In this document: positions 39,763-43,473 of the stretch, piece after piece
How positions within the stretch are numbered: the first letter of the stretch is position 1
Layout of the letters: every line of letters begins with the position of its first letter
From: a bacterium
GTDB taxonomy: Bacteria; Patescibacteriota; Minisyncoccia; UBA6257; Colwellbacteraceae
Direction: 5' to 3'
DNA: 52,694 nt
NCBI GenBank assembly: GCA_021787205.1
Contig: JAJYME010000002.1
Location: forward strand, 1-52,694
Position numbers and translations under genes: made by a program
The notes under the pieces: generated by a model
Told to the model about the DNA's origin: nothing
Database searches by the model: none
Seen by the model: the letters and a program-made list of their open reading frames with translations, nothing else

Positions 39763-40212
39763 ATGATTACCTTTTTATTTGCCGGCGGAAAGACCGAACC
39801 GGATCTGGATTCCGCCTTTTCGCATTATTTGGCTAAACTTAACAAGATTGCCGACTCAAAAGTCATATTCATCAACTCCAGAGAAACTTCACCAGAAAAG
39901 ATAAAGAAAGACGAGAGCGATAAAATCTTAAAAAACATAGCTAAGAACTCTCTCACGATTCTCTTTGATGAGACCGGCAAGGTCGGAGATTCTTTGGAAT
40001 ATGCCAAAGTCATCGAGTCATCGCCATATTCCGACCTCTCAATCATCATTGGCGGATCTTACGGAGTTTCCGACGAAATAAAGGCAAGGAGCCAAAGAAT
40101 CATTTCTTTTGGAAGAATGGTCTTTCCCCACCAATTAGCCAGACTGATGGCAATCGAGCAAACCTACCGAGCGATTCTCATAAACAAAGGATCGGACTAT
40201 CATCACAAATAA
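39763..40212 (+). CDS. rlmH: 23S rRNA (pseudouridine1915-N3)-methyltransferase RlmH (SPOUT)
   Basis: IIGGSYGVSDEIKARSQRIISFGRMVFPHQLARLMAIEQTYRA is the typical RlmH C-terminus. Confidence 0.88.
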   Translation: MITFLFAGGKTEPDLDSAFSHYLAKLNKIADSKVIFINSRETSPEKIKKDESDKILKNIAKNSLTILFDETGKVGDSLEYAKVIESSPYSDLSIIIGGSYGVSDEIKARSQRIISFGRMVFPHQLARLMAIEQTYRAILINKGSDYHHK

Positions 40213-40235
40213 ACCGCCCAGGGGGGCGGTTTTTA
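40211..40235 (+). terminator. Bidirectional terminator (rlmH / RNHCP gene)
   Basis: AAACCGCCC-AGGG-GGGCGGTTT followed by TT. Confidence 0.8.
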
Positions 40236-40700
40236 GTTCTTTATAAAATTGCCAAATAGCTGGCGATAGACCTCATCCTTATCTTTTTCCTCAAGGATCT
40301 CGATCTTTTCCTCCTTCAATGATTCTTTCTCCGCCTCCGATAAAGACAGAGTCTTAGAAAACAGTTTCAAGATCTCGGCCTCATCATCGTCGCCAGCCAA
40401 ACGGTTTATCGATATTTTGCGACACTTGTCACATAGATGGACGATCATCAACTCCCCCTGTTTTTTTCTCCCATACTTATCGACGCCCTCCTGTTTAAAG
40501 GTCAGGGCAACCGGCACCATGATTCCCAAGCAATCAGAGGCGCGGTCTCCGGAGACATCCCGATCGAGGTGTCTCGAGCTCAAACACTTGCGACAATGAT
40601 TCCTATTCTTTGTGCCGATAAGATTGCTAATCTCGTTTCTTTCACCGCAAACCGAACAGATGAATGGACCAAAAGTATCTTCGCTATTTCTAGTAAGCAT
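40233..40700 (-). CDS. RNHCP-domain zinc-ribbon protein
   Basis: FICSVCGERNE...NRNHCRKCLSSRHLD...VHLCDKCRKISINR (Cys pairs plus an RNHC motif). ATG at 40698-40700 lies 7 nt after TGATAGTAT. Confidence 0.7.
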   Translation of the reverse strand: MLTRNSEDTFGPFICSVCGERNEISNLIGTKNRNHCRKCLSSRHLDRDVSGDRASDCLGIMVPVALTFKQEGVDKYGRKKQGELMIVHLCDKCRKISINRLAGDDDEAEILKLFSKTLSLSEAEKESLKEEKIEILEEKDKDEVYRQLFGNFIKN

Positions 40701-40743
40701 TGTCAAAATACTATCAGAGATTTCAGCAAAACTCAAAAATCCA

Positions 40744-40770
40744 CAAGTTATCCACATTGTGGATAACTTG
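40744..40770. promoter_or_regulatory. 27-bp perfect palindrome containing two convergent perfect DnaA boxes
   Basis: CAAGTTATCCACA-T-TGTGGATAACTTG (TTATCCACA at 40748-40756, TGTGGATAA at 40758-40766). An extra ATCCACA lies at 40737-40743. Confidence 0.75.
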
Positions 40771-40870
40771 TGTCATTCTGTCGCAAAATATACCGTCACT
40801 CAATTCTCAACCTTCCCCTGATCGGCAAGCCAGGATAGGTCGTTTCCAACAAACAAGCTAGGAGAACCGG

Positions 40871-40957
40871 TGACAGCGCCTGGCGATGACAAACCACAAT
40901 GACTGACAAGCTTGTGACAAGGCGGTGACAAGATGGTGACAATGGAGTCTTGTCACA
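40871..40957. repeat. Cluster of (G)TGACA(A) boxes, three of them phased at exactly 11 bp
   Basis: TGACA at 40871, 40887, 40904, 40915, 40926 and 40937, and inverted (TGTCA) at 40951. A second cluster lies at about 41296-41425. Confidence 0.8.
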
Positions 40958-41109
40958 AACTTGTGGCCAATTCCTTTGACATTAGGAGTGAAGGATAAGA
41001 CAAATGACAAAAAAGACGAGTTCTTTTTGAACTCTGTTTACACATTTTGTTTTCACATGTCGCAAAATAATGTGTAAACAAAATGTGTAAACAGCAATAG
41101 TAAAAGTAA

Positions 41110-41133
41110 AAAATGTTTGCCGGCAAACATTTT
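41110..41133. repeat. 24-bp perfect palindrome AAAATGTTTGCC|GGCAAACATTTT
   Basis: Read directly from the sequence. Outer arms TGTTT...AAACA match the architecture of the parS consensus TGTTTCACGTGAAACA. Confidence 0.9.
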
Positions 41134-41224
41134 GAAACAAAAAACAGGCAAAGCGTGTGTAAACGGCAAACATCATCCCCTGTTTTTGTGTAAACAGCAA
41201 ACACTTTGTCCAAAAATACGCTAA

Positions 41225-41824
41225 AAGTGTTTGACGTTTACACACCTGCCGTTGTTTTTGTGGAAACAGTGTGTAGACGGCAAACACTGATCCCCCTCGT
41301 TGACAGTGACAAAGCCGTTGACAAGAGAGCTGACAATACCAGTGTCAAAGCAAAAAGACAAGACAAAGACCAAGCTCCGGACAGTGAAAAGGAAAAAGAG
41401 ACGTGTAAAAAGAGGGGGTGACAAAAAACAAGAAGTGTTTGACGTTTACACACCTGCCGTTTTTTTGTGGAAACAATGTGTAGACGGCAAACATTTTGTG
41501 CAGAAAAAAGATATAAGTGTTTGACGTTTACACACCTACCTTTGTTTTTGTGGAAACAGTGTGTAGACGGCAAACAAAAAGATCAAGAACAAACAAGGAG
41601 TGTGTAGACGGCAAACATTTTGTGCAGAAAAAAGATATAAGTGTTTGACGTTTACACACCTGCCTTTGTTTTTGTGGAAACAGTGTGTAGACGGCAAACA
41701 AAAAGATCAAGAACAAACAAGGAGTGTGTAGACGGCAAACATTTTGTGCAGAAAAAAGATATAAGTGTTTGACGTTTACACACCTGCCTTTGTTTTTGTG
41801 GAAACAGTGTGTAGACGGCAAACA
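41225..41824 (+). repeat. Array of iteron-like units. One 62-bp unit, one 82-bp unit, two full 124-bp tandem units and one truncated unit.
   Basis: Units start at 41225, 41433, 41515, 41639 and 41763 (AAGTGTTTGACGTTTACACACCTGCC...). Seven perfect TGTGTAGACGGCAAACA boxes, plus two variants upstream (41156, 41187) and five inverted partners TGTTTGACGTTTACACA. Confidence 0.92.
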
Positions 41825-41830
41825 CCAGTC

Positions 41831-41864
41831 AGCAGAAAATGTTTGCCGACAAACATTTTCTGCT
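41831..41864. repeat. 34-nt palindrome/hairpin AGCAGAAAATGTTTG-CCGA-CAAACATTTTCTGCT
   Basis: 15-bp perfect arms. Shares the core AAAATGTTTGCCG.CAAACATTTT with the palindrome at 41110. Confidence 0.9.
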
Positions 41865-41904
41865 CTTCCGTGATATACTAGAGAGAGACATCCATTAATG
41901 ATAA

Positions 41905-41914
41905 GGGGGGGGGG
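41905..41914. repeat. G10 homopolymer tract
   Basis: ATAAGGGGGGGGGGACAC, 55 nt upstream of the yraN start. Confidence 0.9.
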
Positions 41915-41969
41915 ACACTAATTATTTTGCGACAGTATTAACGGATGCTAACGAAATAAAAAATAACAA

Positions 41970-42350
41970 ATGTCAAGCAAAGACGTGGGTGATTTGGGCG
42001 AGAGCTTAGCCGTCGATTATCTGCAAAAGAAGGGTTGCAAAATCATTGCAAGAAACTGGCGTTGCAGATTCGCCGAGCTGGATATCATAGCCACAGATCC
42101 CGACAATACCCTCTTGATCGTGGAGGTTAAAAGCTCAAAAACGATAATTGACAAAAGTGCCGATTTCTTTCCTGAAATTCACTTTAACGCAACCAAAAGA
42201 AATCGGGTAAGGGCGGCGGGGCTTTACTACGCGAACGCCCAAAAAGATCCGACTAACAAGGATGGGGGTTTCAGGGTCGACCTGATATGCGTCGACATCG
42301 ATCAGGATAAAAAAGGATTCCGGATAAGGCATTATAAAAACGTCACCTAA
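41970..42350 (+). CDS. yraN: YraN-family (UPF0102) putative endonuclease
   Basis: GESLAVDYLQKKGCKIIARNWRCRFAELDIIA...LLIVEVKS matches the YraN/PD-(D/E)xK pattern. Confidence 0.85.
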   Translation: MSSKDVGDLGESLAVDYLQKKGCKIIARNWRCRFAELDIIATDPDNTLLIVEVKSSKTIIDKSADFFPEIHFNATKRNRVRAAGLYYANAQKDPTNKDGGFRVDLICVDIDQDKKGFRIRHYKNVT

Positions 42351-42400
42351 GGACAAAAAAATATTTACAAATAACAAAAAATGTTTAACATATCAAACAT

Positions 42401-42667
42401 ATGCCAAGAACTAAATCCGCTAAAAAAGCGCTCAGGCAATCAATTACCAAAAAAGAACACAATATCGAAAAGAATAAGGTTCTTAAAAGCGTAATTAATA
42501 CATACAAAAAAGCTGCCGCTTCCGGTAATACCAAAGAAGCTGCAGAAATGTTGCCTAAGGTTTATAAGACTCTTGATAAAGCGGCTAAAACCAATCTTAT
42601 TAAAAAGAATAAGGCTAATCGCTTAAAAGGAAGATTAACAAAGACCATAAACAAAAAAACCGCCTAG
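42401..42667 (+). CDS. rpsT: 30S ribosomal protein S20
   Basis: MPRTKSAKKALRQS... 88 aa, basic helical protein typical of S20. Confidence 0.92.
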   Translation: MPRTKSAKKALRQSITKKEHNIEKNKVLKSVINTYKKAAASGNTKEAAEMLPKVYKTLDKAAKTNLIKKNKANRLKGRLTKTINKKTA

Positions 42668-42681
42668 TTGGCGGTTTTTTA
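42655..42681 (+). terminator. Bidirectional terminator (rpsT / holA-like)
   Basis: AAACCGCC-TAGTT-GGCGGTTT followed by TTTT. Confidence 0.8.
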
Positions 42682-43473
42682 TTTCAGGGCAAAATCTAAT
42701 AAGACCTCTTCGTAATTCAAGTTGCCTGATTTGACAGCAACATCATAATCGGCAAAACGAGCATACCAATCTTCAGCTCTTTCAGATTTGGGAGCCGTAG
42801 CGCTCAGGAGATTAAAAGCGTGCCCGGCGTCGGCATCCAGATAGGAAAAGATTATTTCGAGATAGAACATCTTTTCGGCTCTGGTTTTAGAGTAGCGGAG
42901 TTTGCTAATGGCAGAGAACAGCTCATAGCCCGAGTAATCATCCTTCTGGATATTCTCATGGGAAAAGGAGAGGCGGTCAATTTCATTAACCATCCCGGTA
43001 AGATCGTTTCCGAAACTCTCGATCATACTCGAAGCATCGGAATCAGTCAGGGACAAACCTCTTCTTCTGGCCTCCTTCTGGATAAAATCCACCAAAGAGC
43101 GACTTTCAGGAACCGAAAATTCCTTAGTAATTGAAGCCTCCGAGAGAAGGGCATTGAACTCAGCCGGAAGTTTGGTGGCCGAGATGAGAATGACGTTCCT
43201 TTCATCCTTTTTGACCAATTCCAGCAGAGTGAGGAAATCTTTAAGATCTGATTTCCCCAGGGTAGCAGAATCAAATCCTTGAAAGGAACAAAGCTTTATA
43301 GGGCTGAAAAAGGAGAAGTTTCTGACAAAATCGACAACCTCTGGAAGGGAGTTCTCGGGAAAAGAGAACTTCTGGACGCCGAGATTTCCATGTTTTTTAA
43401 CAAACTCATCAACCAAGGCGTTGGCATATCGGGATCTCTCAAACTCATTGTCTCCGGAGAGTAAAATCAGCAT
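42679..43473 (-). CDS. holA: DNA polymerase III delta subunit-like protein (short)
   Basis: 264 aa. The MLILLSGDNEFERSRY N-terminus and overall helical pattern resemble short HolA proteins. No sharp motif, so this is tentative. Confidence 0.55.
   Translation of the reverse strand: MLILLSGDNEFERSRYANALVDEFVKKHGNLGVQKFSFPENSLPEVVDFVRNFSFFSPIKLCSFQGFDSATLGKSDLKDFLTLLELVKKDERNVILISATKLPAEFNALLSEASITKEFSVPESRSLVDFIQKEARRRGLSLTDSDASSMIESFGNDLTGMVNEIDRLSFSHENIQKDDYSGYELFSAISKLRYSKTRAEKMFYLEIIFSYLDADAGHAFNLLSATAPKSERAEDWYARFADYDVAVKSGNLNYEEVLLDFALK

What the first reader, a model, noticed from the sequence alone, without database searches (positions are those of the whole stretch)
40737..40770. Two perfect DnaA boxes forming a 27-bp perfect palindrome
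CAAGTTATCCACA-T-TGTGGATAACTTG contains TTATCCACA and its reverse complement head-to-head, 1 nt apart. A third partial box (ATCCACA) lies immediately upstream. The palindrome extends 4 nt beyond each box, so selection acts on more than the 9-mer. It sits about 23 nt upstream of the predicted -35 of the RNHCP gene promoter (TTGAGT, 17 nt, TGATAGTAT). It could therefore be either an origin element or a DnaA-dependent operator.
Basis: partly seen in the sequence, partly recalled or inferred. Interest (0 to 1): 0.62.

Follow-up and report, generated by a model that had tools for sequence, protein, structure and literature searches.

The report
DnaA-box palindrome beside centromere-like hub
Two perfect binding sites for the replication initiator DnaA, plus a weaker third, sit just upstream of a small gene's promoter about 14 kb from the replication origin of a tiny uncultured bacterium; this is a real but familiar kind of off-origin DnaA site, not the origin itself.

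Summary
The perfect palindrome is 31 bp (40742-40772): two consensus DnaA boxes head-to-head, 1 nt apart, with a third 7/9 box 2 nt further on.

It is not the chromosomal origin. The usual rpmH-dnaA-dnaN origin lies on contig C6. Gene order in relatives places the palindrome about 14 kb from it.

The same palindrome occurs in at least 119 genomes of many phyla (about 0.5 expected). It lies mostly away from dnaA, and in 59% of loci a third box follows. The layout matches the E. coli DARS core, with tighter spacing.

Five of six related genomes that carry the neighbouring parS-like repeat hub have DnaA boxes at the same hub edge. There the boxes are direct repeats, so the palindromic form is specific to this species.

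In this genome, perfect DnaA boxes are strongly intergenic. Eight of 18 lie 27-34 nt upstream of a -10 hexamer, and the RNHCP promoter fits that spacing (34 nt).

Best reading: a high-affinity DnaA site outside the origin, at the hub boundary, that also acts as an upstream operator of the RNHCP promoter. It is a new member of a known kind and moderately interesting.

The parts
40742..40772 (.). 31-bp perfect palindrome: two consensus DnaA boxes head-to-head with a 1-nt centre at 40757
   Evidence: I23. Identical in two other assemblies of the same species.
40758..40766 (-). Box I: perfect TTATCCACA read on the minus strand; the box farther from the promoter, and the one in opposite orientation
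   Evidence: Corresponds to box I of the E. coli DARS1 core, read.
40748..40756 (+). Box II: perfect TTATCCACA on the plus strand; 34 nt upstream of the RNHCP -10 hexamer
   Evidence: The spacing matches that of other perfect boxes in this genome.
40737..40745 (+). Box III: AAATCCACA (7/9), same orientation as box II, 2 nt away; abuts the -35 hexamer
   Evidence: A third box in the same orientation at a 2-4 nt gap occurs in 71 of 120 loci with this palindrome.
40708..40736 (-). Predicted RNHCP promoter: -35 TTGAGT (40736-40731), 17-nt spacer, extended -10 TGA-TAGTAT (40716-40708). The -10 ends 7 nt before the ATG at 40700, so the mRNA would have little or no leader.
   Evidence: read directly. 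Not listed by the strict scan because TAGTAT is only 4/6.
40233..40700 (-). RNHCP-domain gene (155 aa from the ATG at 40700); function unknown
   Evidence: Pfam PF12647. Start chosen from ortholog N-termini. No NCBIfam match and no fold match.
40779..40790 (+). 12-mer TGTCGCAAAATA marking the hub boundary. Its inverted partner is at 41924-41935. It lies 6 nt from the palindrome.
   Evidence: (D12, I24). Relatives show the same order, 12-mer then DnaA boxes. In G001 an inverted pair flanks the hub.
40773..41969 (.). 1.2-kb non-coding repeat hub. It contains GTGACAA boxes, GTTTACACA-type boxes, 124-bp tandem units, and two parS-like palindromes TGTTTGCCG(G/A)CAAACA at 41114 and 41840.
   Evidence: Homologous hubs in relatives carry 4-11 such palindromes at a 41-43 bp period.
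41970..42350 (+). yraN (UPF0102) gene on the far side of the hub
   Evidence: gene order in relatives.

Best explanation
The palindrome is a high-affinity docking site for DnaA, the replication initiator, outside the replication origin.

**Layout.** It is a three-box module. Read towards the RNHCP gene it is TTATCCACA-N1-TGTGGATAA-N2-TGTGGATTT. Box I faces boxes II and III. This is the layout of the E. coli DARS core, with tighter spacing.

**Position.** It lies about 14 kb from the dnaA-dnaN origin, at the outer edge of a conserved parS-like, centromere-type repeat hub. Related genera keep DnaA boxes at this same edge.

**Likely action.** In this species the boxes abut the -35 hexamer of the RNHCP promoter and cover about -36 to -65. 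The nearer perfect box has the same spacing to the -10 hexamer as single DnaA boxes at other promoters in this genome. DnaA bound here therefore most likely sets RNHCP transcription according to DnaA level or nucleotide state. My estimate is about 60:40 that it helps RNA polymerase at low occupancy, rather than purely repressing. The site would also hold DnaA next to the centromere-like hub.

**Shown:** the sequence, its non-random recurrence, its position, and the conservation of boxes at the hub edge.
**Inferred:** DnaA binding, the effect on the promoter, and its direction.
For: **DnaA can read these boxes.**
- The genome has one DnaA and one DnaA domain IV.
- The base-contact residues of E. 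coli DnaA (R399, P423, D433, H434, T435) are kept.
- The same 9-mers cluster at rpmH-dnaA and at dnaA-dnaN.

**The palindrome recurs widely.**
- GTTATCCACA-N-TGTGGATAAC occurs in at least 119 genomes of many phyla, against about 0.5 expected. The centre base is free. Only DnaA is common to all these phyla.
- Only 6 of 102 loci have dnaA nearby.
- Its settings include upstream of rlmH (yydA) in the Bacillus cereus group, upstream of nrdB, and upstream of rsmG. The region upstream of yydA is an experimentally bound DnaA region in B. subtilis (PMC4447404, PMC3245932).
- 71 of 120 loci have a third box in the same orientation 2-4 nt on.
- The E. coli DARS1 core reads TTATCCACT-N5-TGTGGATAA-N3-TGTGTATTA (PMC6868365).

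**DnaA boxes in this genome behave like promoter elements.**
- 12 of 18 perfect boxes lie outside ORFs (p = 7e-10). Among 300 control 9-mers of the same composition, the maximum is 5.
- 8 of 18 lie 27-34 nt upstream of a -10 hexamer, RNHCP included.
- Boxes with up to one mismatch peak at the same distance.

**Position near the origin and at the hub edge.**
- Relatives show the order dnaA, dnaN, PBP1A, further shared genes, rpsT, yraN, hub, RNHCP. This puts the site about 14 kb from the origin.
- DnaA boxes sit at the same hub edge in 5 of 6 hub-bearing relatives. In G036 they lie directly upstream of RNHCP.
Against: - No binding or expression data exist.
- The palindromic form is not conserved. 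Relatives have direct repeats (TTGTCCACA ... TTATCCCCA-N3-TTATCCACA), and their distance to the next gene varies from 95 to 250 nt. The conserved role may therefore belong to the hub rather than to a promoter.
- RNHCP orthologs that lie apart from the hub have GTTTACACA-type boxes and a parS-like palindrome upstream, not consensus DnaA boxes.
- The promoter is predicted only, and the -10 is weak (TAGTAT).
- On the minus strand the palindrome also looks like a terminator.
Confidence: 0.6

Rival explanations
1. The DnaA boxes belong to the hub, not to the RNHCP gene. DnaA docked at the edge of the parS-like centromere array would serve control of replication initiation. That could be titration as at B. 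subtilis DnaA-box clusters or E. coli datA, or DARS-like nucleotide exchange through the head-to-head pair. Alternatively it could couple DnaA to ParB-driven segregation, as at the Caulobacter centromere. Any effect on RNHCP would be incidental. This overlaps with the best explanation; the difference is which role is primary.
For: - Boxes sit at the same hub edge in 5 of 6 hub-bearing relatives, whichever gene follows: an NTP-transferase-like gene at 200-250 nt in three genera, RNHCP in G036 and here.
- The site is near the origin.
- The box topology is DARS-like.
- ParB is encoded, and the genome has no canonical parS other than the hub palindromes.
- Precedents: PMC3245932 (DnaA-box clusters acting with Spo0J/Soj), PMC6667618 citing Mera 2014 (DnaA binds the centromere), PMC6868365 (DARS).
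Against: - Box I-II spacing is 1 bp against 5 bp in DARS.
- There are only three boxes, fewer than in datA or the B. subtilis clusters (4-12 boxes).
- One hub-bearing relative (G001) has no DnaA boxes within 1.5 kb.
- The exact match to the genome-wide spacing between box and -10 hexamer argues for a role in transcription here.
Confidence: 0.25
2. The hub together with the palindrome is the true replication origin, displaced 14 kb from dnaA. The perfect boxes would be the high-affinity anchors and the GTTTACACA-type boxes the low-affinity DnaA sites.
For: - The cumulative GC-skew trough of C6 joined to reversed C11 is a plateau from dnaA to about C11:39 kb. The value at the palindrome (-1087) is close to the global minimum (-1098 at C11:48644), and a rise follows.
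- GTTTACACA matches the relaxed box TTWTNCACA at 8/9. Such boxes number more than 20 in the hub.
- An AT-rich stretch lies at 41000-41150.
Against: - The dnaA-dnaN spacer has the usual origin parts: several boxes, a CCCC cluster, and an AT-rich tract just before dnaN. The rpmH-dnaA spacer has four boxes. Relatives show the same.
- GTTTACACA-type boxes always start with G and are absent from the dnaA-flanking box clusters of relatives. This suggests another binding protein.
- Relatives' hubs are 41-43-bp-period arrays of 16-bp palindromes, like plasmid centromeres such as sopC.
- Skew on C11 is weak and irregular.
Confidence: 0.06
3. The palindrome works as RNA. It would be an intrinsic terminator hairpin on the minus strand that stops transcripts leaving the hub before they reach the RNHCP promoter.
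For: - The terminator scan lists it: 14 pairs, a 3-nt loop, then GATTTTTGAG.
- The RNA fold is -28.1 kcal/mol, z = -4.2.
- Many DnaA boxes in this genome sit next to terminators.
Against: - The stem consists of exactly two consensus DnaA boxes, which a terminator does not need.
- The stem is only 40% GC.
- No gene lies upstream on that strand within the hub.
- The same palindrome in more than 100 other genomes has no T-tract after it.
- The T-run is part of the region upstream of the -35 hexamer.
Confidence: 0.05
4. The palindrome is the operator of a dimeric transcription factor other than DnaA, and only happens to resemble DnaA boxes.
For: - Perfect two-fold symmetry over 31 bp is typical of operators for dimeric regulators.
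- The hub holds motifs for other, unidentified binding proteins.
Against: - Both arms are the exact 9-mer consensus.
- The arm equals the box pair of the dnaA promoter at 17 of 18 positions.
- The palindrome recurs across phyla that share no regulator other than DnaA.
- The centre base varies freely.
Confidence: 0.04

Closest known systems
E. coli DARS1/DARS2 core (DnaA-reactivating sequences)
   Same: Both have three DnaA boxes, with box I opposite to boxes II and III, a consensus box II and a degenerate box III. E. coli DARS1 reads TTATCCACT-N5-TGTGGATAA-N3-TGTGTATTA. This site reads TTATCCACA-N1-TGTGGATAA-N2-TGTGGATTT. Both are intergenic and outside oriC. [quoted passage not shown]
   Different: Box I-II spacing is 1 bp, not 5, and box II-III spacing is 2 bp, not 3. 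No IHF or Fis sites were looked for. ADP-DnaA preference and ADP release are untested. DARS function has been shown only in E. coli (my own knowledge).
Bacillus subtilis DnaA-box clusters outside oriC (sda, ywlC, ywcI, yydA, gcp, trmE regions)
   Same: Both are intergenic clusters of consensus boxes near the origin, next to promoters that DnaA regulates. They act together with Spo0J/Soj (ParB/ParA) in initiation control (PMC3245932, PMC4447404). The same palindrome lies upstream of rlmH (yydA) in the Bacillus cereus group.
   Different: This site has only three boxes, against 4-12 in the B. subtilis clusters. YabA/DnaN involvement and any titration effect are unknown.
DnaA-regulated promoters (E. 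coli dnaA, nrdAB; B. subtilis dnaA, sda, ywlC, yydA)
   Same: Boxes are placed at or just upstream of the -35 region, with DnaA acting as a transcription factor. In one Saprospiraceae genome the same palindrome lies upstream of nrdB.
   Different: Here a fixed spacing of 27-34 nt between box and -10 hexamer recurs at many promoters of one small genome, including pilin-like and surface-protein genes. I know of no description of this in model organisms.
DnaA binding at the Caulobacter crescentus centromere (parS region)
   Same: DnaA boxes lie beside ParB-type centromere sites a few kb from the origin (Mera et al. 2014, cited in PMC6667618).
   Different: The hub here is only parS-like (12/16 to the canonical site) and has not been shown to bind ParB. 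Its architecture, a dense palindrome array, is closer to plasmid sopC-type centromeres.
E. coli datA
   Same: Both are DnaA-box clusters near the origin but outside it that could hold DnaA.
   Different: datA needs about four or five boxes plus IHF and promotes ATP hydrolysis. Nothing here speaks for or against that activity.

Membership tests
High-affinity DnaA box | 9-mer matching TTATCCACA (relaxed form TTWTNCACA) | tested here: met
   Two perfect 9-mers and one 7/9.
High-affinity DnaA box | Host DnaA with conserved base-contact residues in domain IV | tested here: met
   R399, P423, D433, H434 and T435 equivalents are kept. H439 is replaced by Y, as in M. tuberculosis DnaA. There is a single domain IV in the genome.
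High-affinity DnaA box | Physical binding by DnaA | not testable with these tools
   Needs EMSA, footprinting or DAP-seq.
Chromosomal origin oriC | Located at dnaA/dnaN or at the GC-skew switch | tested here: inconclusive
   The site is about 14 kb from dnaA-dnaN. The skew trough is a plateau that covers both places.
Chromosomal origin oriC | Array of same-orientation boxes next to an AT-rich unwinding element or DnaA-trios | tested here: not met
   No AT-rich element lies within about 230 nt of the palindrome. These features are present in the dnaA-dnaN spacer on C6.
DARS core | Three boxes, with box I opposite to boxes II and III | tested here: met
DARS core | Conserved spacing: boxes I-II 5 bp, boxes II-III 3 bp | tested here: not met
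   The spacings here are 1 bp and 2 bp.
DARS core | Promotes ADP release from ADP-DnaA | not testable with these tools
   Needs a biochemical assay.
Non-oriC DnaA-box cluster (B. subtilis type) | Intergenic, outside oriC, near the origin | tested here: met
Non-oriC DnaA-box cluster (B. subtilis type) | Cluster of at least four boxes binding DnaA cooperatively | tested here: inconclusive
   There are three boxes. It is unknown whether the more than 20 GTTTACACA-type boxes nearby count as DnaA sites.
DnaA-regulated promoter | Boxes overlapping or abutting core promoter elements | tested here: met
   The boxes cover about -36 to -65. The spacing equals that of seven other perfect boxes in this genome. 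The promoter itself is predicted only.
DnaA-regulated promoter | Expression responds to DnaA | not testable with these tools
Intrinsic terminator | GC-rich hairpin followed by a U-tract at the end of a transcription unit | tested here: inconclusive
   The pattern matches on the minus strand. However, the stem is 40% GC and no gene lies upstream on that strand.
REP/MITE-type dispersed repeat | Multiple copies in the genome | tested here: not met
   There is a single copy in the 616-kb genome.

The most novel reading that the evidence does not exclude
The three-box module with a 1-bp gap between boxes I and II (TTATCCACA-N1-TGTGGATAA-N2-4-TGTGGnnnn) may be a widespread, so far uncharacterised DnaA-handling element with DARS-like topology. 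It occurs in Actinomycetota, Acidobacteriota, Chlorobi, Bacillota, Spirochaetes and here. [quoted passage not shown]
Probability: 0.15. Interest if true: 0.75.

Novelty: new member of a known kind. Interest (0 to 1): 0.42.

Why it matters
Replication control in Patescibacteria (very small, mostly uncultured bacteria) is almost unstudied. This locus gives a concrete, testable DnaA target outside the origin.

Three points go beyond an ordinary DnaA box:
- **Conserved pairing with the hub.** DnaA boxes are paired with a dense parS-like centromere hub across several genera. This recalls DnaA at the Caulobacter centromere and the interplay of DnaA-box clusters with Spo0J/Soj in B. subtilis.
- **A recurring module.** The palindrome belongs to a three-box module that recurs in more than 100 genomes. 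It has the topology of a DARS core but a different spacing. If functional, it would extend DARS-like or dimer-forcing DnaA sites well beyond E. coli.
- **Fixed promoter spacing.** In this genome DnaA boxes sit at a fixed distance upstream of -10 hexamers, including those of pilin-like and surface-protein genes. This suggests DnaA is a general transcription factor in a genome with very few regulators.

If none of this holds, it is an ordinary off-origin DnaA site.

Tried and rejected
- **Rfam, permissive thresholds, 40000-42800:** only sub-threshold chance hits.
- **tRNA scan:** nothing in the region.
- **Close relatives:** the reference set has no genome of the same genus. The metagenome scan with the RNHCP protein found only relatives at 50-62% identity. 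Exact-protein look-up with the 155-aa form found nothing. The 174-aa form found same-species contigs only.
- **GC skew:** on single contigs and on C6 joined to reversed C11, it cannot separate dnaA-dnaN from the hub.
- **Canonical parS:** none within 2 mismatches anywhere in the genome.
- **Second DnaA-like DNA-binding domain:** none.
- **Dispersed repeat or mobile-element end:** rejected, single copy.
- **RNHCP function:** no NCBIfam match. The AlphaFold model is moderate (pLDDT 75.5). The PDB fold search had no hit below E = 1. No literature on the domain.
- **Literature on this exact palindrome:** none found.
- **Head-to-head pairs in 400 Patescibacteria:** gaps of 4-6 nt dominate, and a 1-nt gap occurs only here. 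No third box was evident next to the pairs listed.

Full report
**1. Observation**

The sequence at 40737-40772 reads AAATCCACA-AG-TTATCCACA-T-TGTGGATAA-CTTGTG.
- Perfect TTATCCACA lies at 40748 on the + strand and at 40758 on the - strand.
- The repeat finder gives 15-nt arms, 100% complementary, 1 nt apart, at 40742-40756 and 40758-40772 (I23). The perfect palindrome is therefore 31 bp, not 27.
- The window is the whole of contig C11 of a 616-kb, 11-contig genome.
- That genome has 18 perfect boxes against about 4.7 expected.
- Two other assemblies of the same species (99.9% identity) carry the palindrome unchanged. One of them lacks 248 nt of the neighbouring 124-bp tandem array.

**2. Local anatomy**

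The RNHCP-domain gene (PF12647) is on the minus strand.
- The ORF on record (174 aa) starts at the ATG in the palindrome centre. Orthologs have short hydrophilic N-termini that match a start at 40700.
- Upstream of that ATG lie the -35 hexamer TTGAGT (40736-40731), a 17-nt spacer, and the extended -10 TGA-TAGTAT (40716-40708). The -10 ends 7 nt before the ATG, so the mRNA would have little or no leader.
- With a transcription start near 40701, the three boxes cover about -36 to -65.

On the other side of the palindrome lies a 1.2-kb non-coding repeat hub that reaches to yraN.

**3. Not the origin**

dnaA is on contig C6.
- The rpmH-dnaA spacer holds TTATCCACT, TATCAACA, TTATCCACA and TGTGGATAA.
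- The dnaA-dnaN spacer holds TTATACACA, TTATCAACA and TTATCCACC, then CCCC and an AT-rich tract just before dnaN.
- Four relatives have dnaA and the RNHCP ortholog on one contig, 13-17 kb apart.
- Their gene order is dnaA, dnaN, PBP1A, then the genes of C11 in reverse, then rpsT, yraN, hub and RNHCP.
- Residues 1-99 of dnaN end C6, and residues 1-435 of the PBP start at the end of C11. So C6 joins reversed C11 across a gap of about 2 kb, and the palindrome is about 14 kb from the dnaA-dnaN spacer.
- GC skew does not help. The trough of the joined sequence is a plateau from dnaA to about C11:39 kb, and the value at the palindrome is near the minimum. The origin rival is therefore kept at low probability rather than excluded.

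**4. DnaA is the likely reader**

- The genome has one DnaA and one DnaA domain IV.
- Aligned to the E. coli domain IV-DNA structure 1J1V, the base-contact residues are kept. H439 is Y, as in M. tuberculosis DnaA.
- The symmetry beyond the 9-mers has a simple cause. Nine of the 18 perfect boxes carry an AG 5' flank.
- The arm ATCCACAAGTTATCCACA differs at one of 18 positions from the box pair ATCAACAAGTTATCCACA in the dnaA promoter. Each arm is therefore a tandem box pair at 11-bp spacing, with the outer box decayed.

**5. The palindrome is a recurrent module**

About 0.5 are expected.
- The centre base is free. The taxa include Corynebacterium, Arthrobacter, the Bacillus cereus group, Acidobacteriaceae, Clostridia, Elusimicrobia, Prosthecochloris, Saprospiraceae and Treponema.
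- The hits are phylogenetically clustered, so 119 is not a count of independent events.
- Only 6 of 102 loci hold dnaA.
- Sampled neighbours are rlmH (yydA), nrdB, rsmG, a 3-methyladenine glycosylase and others.
- The region upstream of yydA is one of the strong DnaA-bound regions outside oriC in B. subtilis (PMC4447404, PMC3245932).
- In 71 of 120 loci a third box (up to 2 mismatches) follows one arm in the same orientation. The gap is 2 nt in 23 cases, 3 nt in 8 and 4 nt in 39. Only 10 loci have a flanking box in the other orientation. The window has the 2-nt form.
- The E. coli DARS1 core, read directly from MG1655, is TTATCCACT-N5-TGTGGATAA-N3-TGTGTATTA. The topology is the same and the spacing differs.
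- DARS works through a head-to-head DnaA dimer on boxes I and II (PMC5742627, PMC6868365).
- In 401 Patescibacteria genomes, perfect head-to-head pairs with a 0-20 nt gap occur in 20 genomes, against 1 for the reversed control pattern. Gaps are mostly 4-6 nt, and the 1-nt gap is unique to this genome.

**6. Relatives**

There is no genome of the same genus. RNHCP orthologs at 54-61% identity were compared.
- Where RNHCP lies apart from the hub, its upstream region has two or three TGTG(T/G)AAAC boxes and a palindrome of the type AAAATGTTT..CCG..AAACA. It has no consensus DnaA boxes.
- The hub next to yraN is conserved in 6 of 53 genomes of the family. It holds 4-11 palindromes TGTTT(G/C)(C/A)CG(A/G)CAAACA at a 41-43 bp period, flanked by GTTT(T/A)CACA boxes and the 12-mer TGTCGCAAAATA.
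- In 5 of those 6 genomes, DnaA boxes (TTGTCCACA ... TTATCCCCA-N3-TTATCCACA, all in one orientation) lie at the edge away from yraN. This is the position of the palindrome in the window.
- In G036 these boxes lie about 95 nt upstream of RNHCP, as in the window. In three genera an NTP-transferase-like gene follows at 200-250 nt.

So DnaA boxes at this hub edge are conserved, and the palindromic form is not.

ParB is encoded in the genome. The genome has no canonical parS within 2 mismatches, and the only parS-like palindromes are the two in the hub.

**7. DnaA boxes as promoter elements in this genome**

- Twelve of 18 perfect boxes lie outside even generously called ORFs, where 8% of the genome is non-coding (p = 7e-10). 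Among 300 control 9-mers of the same composition, the mean is 0.31 and the maximum 5.
- Eight boxes lie 27, 28, 30, 30, 30, 30, 34 and 34 nt upstream of a -10 hexamer, in either orientation. Most of these -10 hexamers are TG-extended.
- With one mismatch allowed, the distance histogram peaks at 20-39 nt. Eleven TG-extended -10 hexamers have a box at 27-34 nt.
- The genes served include three pilin-like proteins, three large surface proteins and pyrG. A box also lies upstream of infC, at 53 nt.
- Box II of the palindrome is 34 nt from the RNHCP -10 hexamer and fits this pattern.

**8. Mechanism**

*Shown:* a three-box consensus module at about -36 to -65 of a predicted promoter, at a conserved position at the edge of a hub near the origin.

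*Inferred:*
- DnaA binds the module. Boxes I and II are both perfect, so both should be occupied at low DnaA levels. Box III would fill cooperatively.
- Occupancy modulates RNA polymerase at the RNHCP promoter. I lean to activation, because the single-box promoters of this genome lack good -35 hexamers and place the box around -44 to -51. Repression once box III, which abuts the -35 hexamer, is filled is equally conceivable.
- The site also holds DnaA next to the centromere-like hub. This is a role with precedents in B. subtilis and Caulobacter.

**9. Rivals**

The rivals are a role at the hub only, the true origin, a minus-strand terminator, and an operator for another dimeric regulator. They are weighed in the Rival explanations section.

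**10. Dead ends**

- RNHCP function stayed unknown.
- Rfam gave nothing.

**11. Verdict**

This is a genuine, non-random DnaA-box module of a known general kind, a DnaA site outside the origin. Its form is derived and specific to this species, and its setting is of some interest. Notes from earlier agents of this scan on similar DnaA-box pairs and on this hub agree with this reading. They were treated as leads only.

Noticed in passing
window 40773-41969: A 1.2-kb non-coding hub. It contains GTGACAA boxes phased at 11 bp, more than 20 GTTTACACA/GTCTACACA/GTTTCCACA boxes joined to GCAAACA half-sites, 124-bp tandem units, and two parS-like palindromes. Relatives have 41-43-bp-period arrays of 4-11 such palindromes at the homologous place, which resembles plasmid sopC-type centromeres.
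   Followed up: partly
window 41477-41824 versus L186: Another assembly of the same species lacks 248 nt, exactly two 124-bp units. Either the copy number varies or one assembly collapsed the repeat.
   Followed up: partly
own genome, e.g. C1:36228, C2:316, C2:81087, C2:101279, C3:121059, C7:82314, window 15655: Perfect DnaA boxes lie 27-34 nt upstream of -10 hexamers, most of them TG-extended. The promoters served include those of pilin-like and large surface-protein genes. DnaA boxes look like a general upstream promoter element in this genome.
   Followed up: partly
window 18722, 19974, 40779, 41058, 41925; C2:27153, C2:27754: The motif TTTTGCGACA recurs at eight sites, one of them inside the RNHCP gene. 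It flanks the hub as an inverted pair here and in relative G001. Its distance to -10 hexamers is not constant. The binding protein is unknown.
   Followed up: partly
window 40700-40757: The RNHCP ORF on record (174 aa) is probably 19 codons too long. The likely start at 40700 lies 7 nt after the -10 hexamer, so the mRNA would have little or no leader.
   Followed up: yes
window 39763-40212: rlmH (SPOUT methyltransferase) lies 530 bp from the palindrome. In the Bacillus cereus group the same palindrome lies about 90 nt upstream of rlmH (yydA), a known DnaA-bound region in B. subtilis. Here the genes converge, so the resemblance is probably coincidental.
   Followed up: no
C2:44057-44200 and C2:63640-63765 of the own genome: An intergenic segment of about 115 nt, consisting of a terminator and a perfect DnaA box, is duplicated at two places.
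   Followed up: no
G316 (same class), e.g. C5:23000, C8:8415: One Patescibacteria genome has 16 copies of TTATCCACA-(15 nt, GGTAAGGGTGGTGGG)-TGTGGATAA. This is a dispersed repeat family built on inverted DnaA boxes.
   Followed up: no
L021, L037, L059 and about 30 other Corynebacterium loci: The palindrome and its flanks are conserved across the genus Corynebacterium: ...aaattacaaaaatgta-GTTATCCACANTGTGGATAAC-..tgtggaattctttcgcaca. In one strain it lies between a rhomboid gene and an FAD-oxidoreductase gene.
   Followed up: partly
window 42679-43473: The 264-aa ORF with no Pfam hit matches holA, the DNA polymerase III delta subunit (TIGR01128, 83 bits). The stretch near the origin is rich in replication and repair genes: holA, fpg and a 5'-3' exonuclease.
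   Followed up: partly
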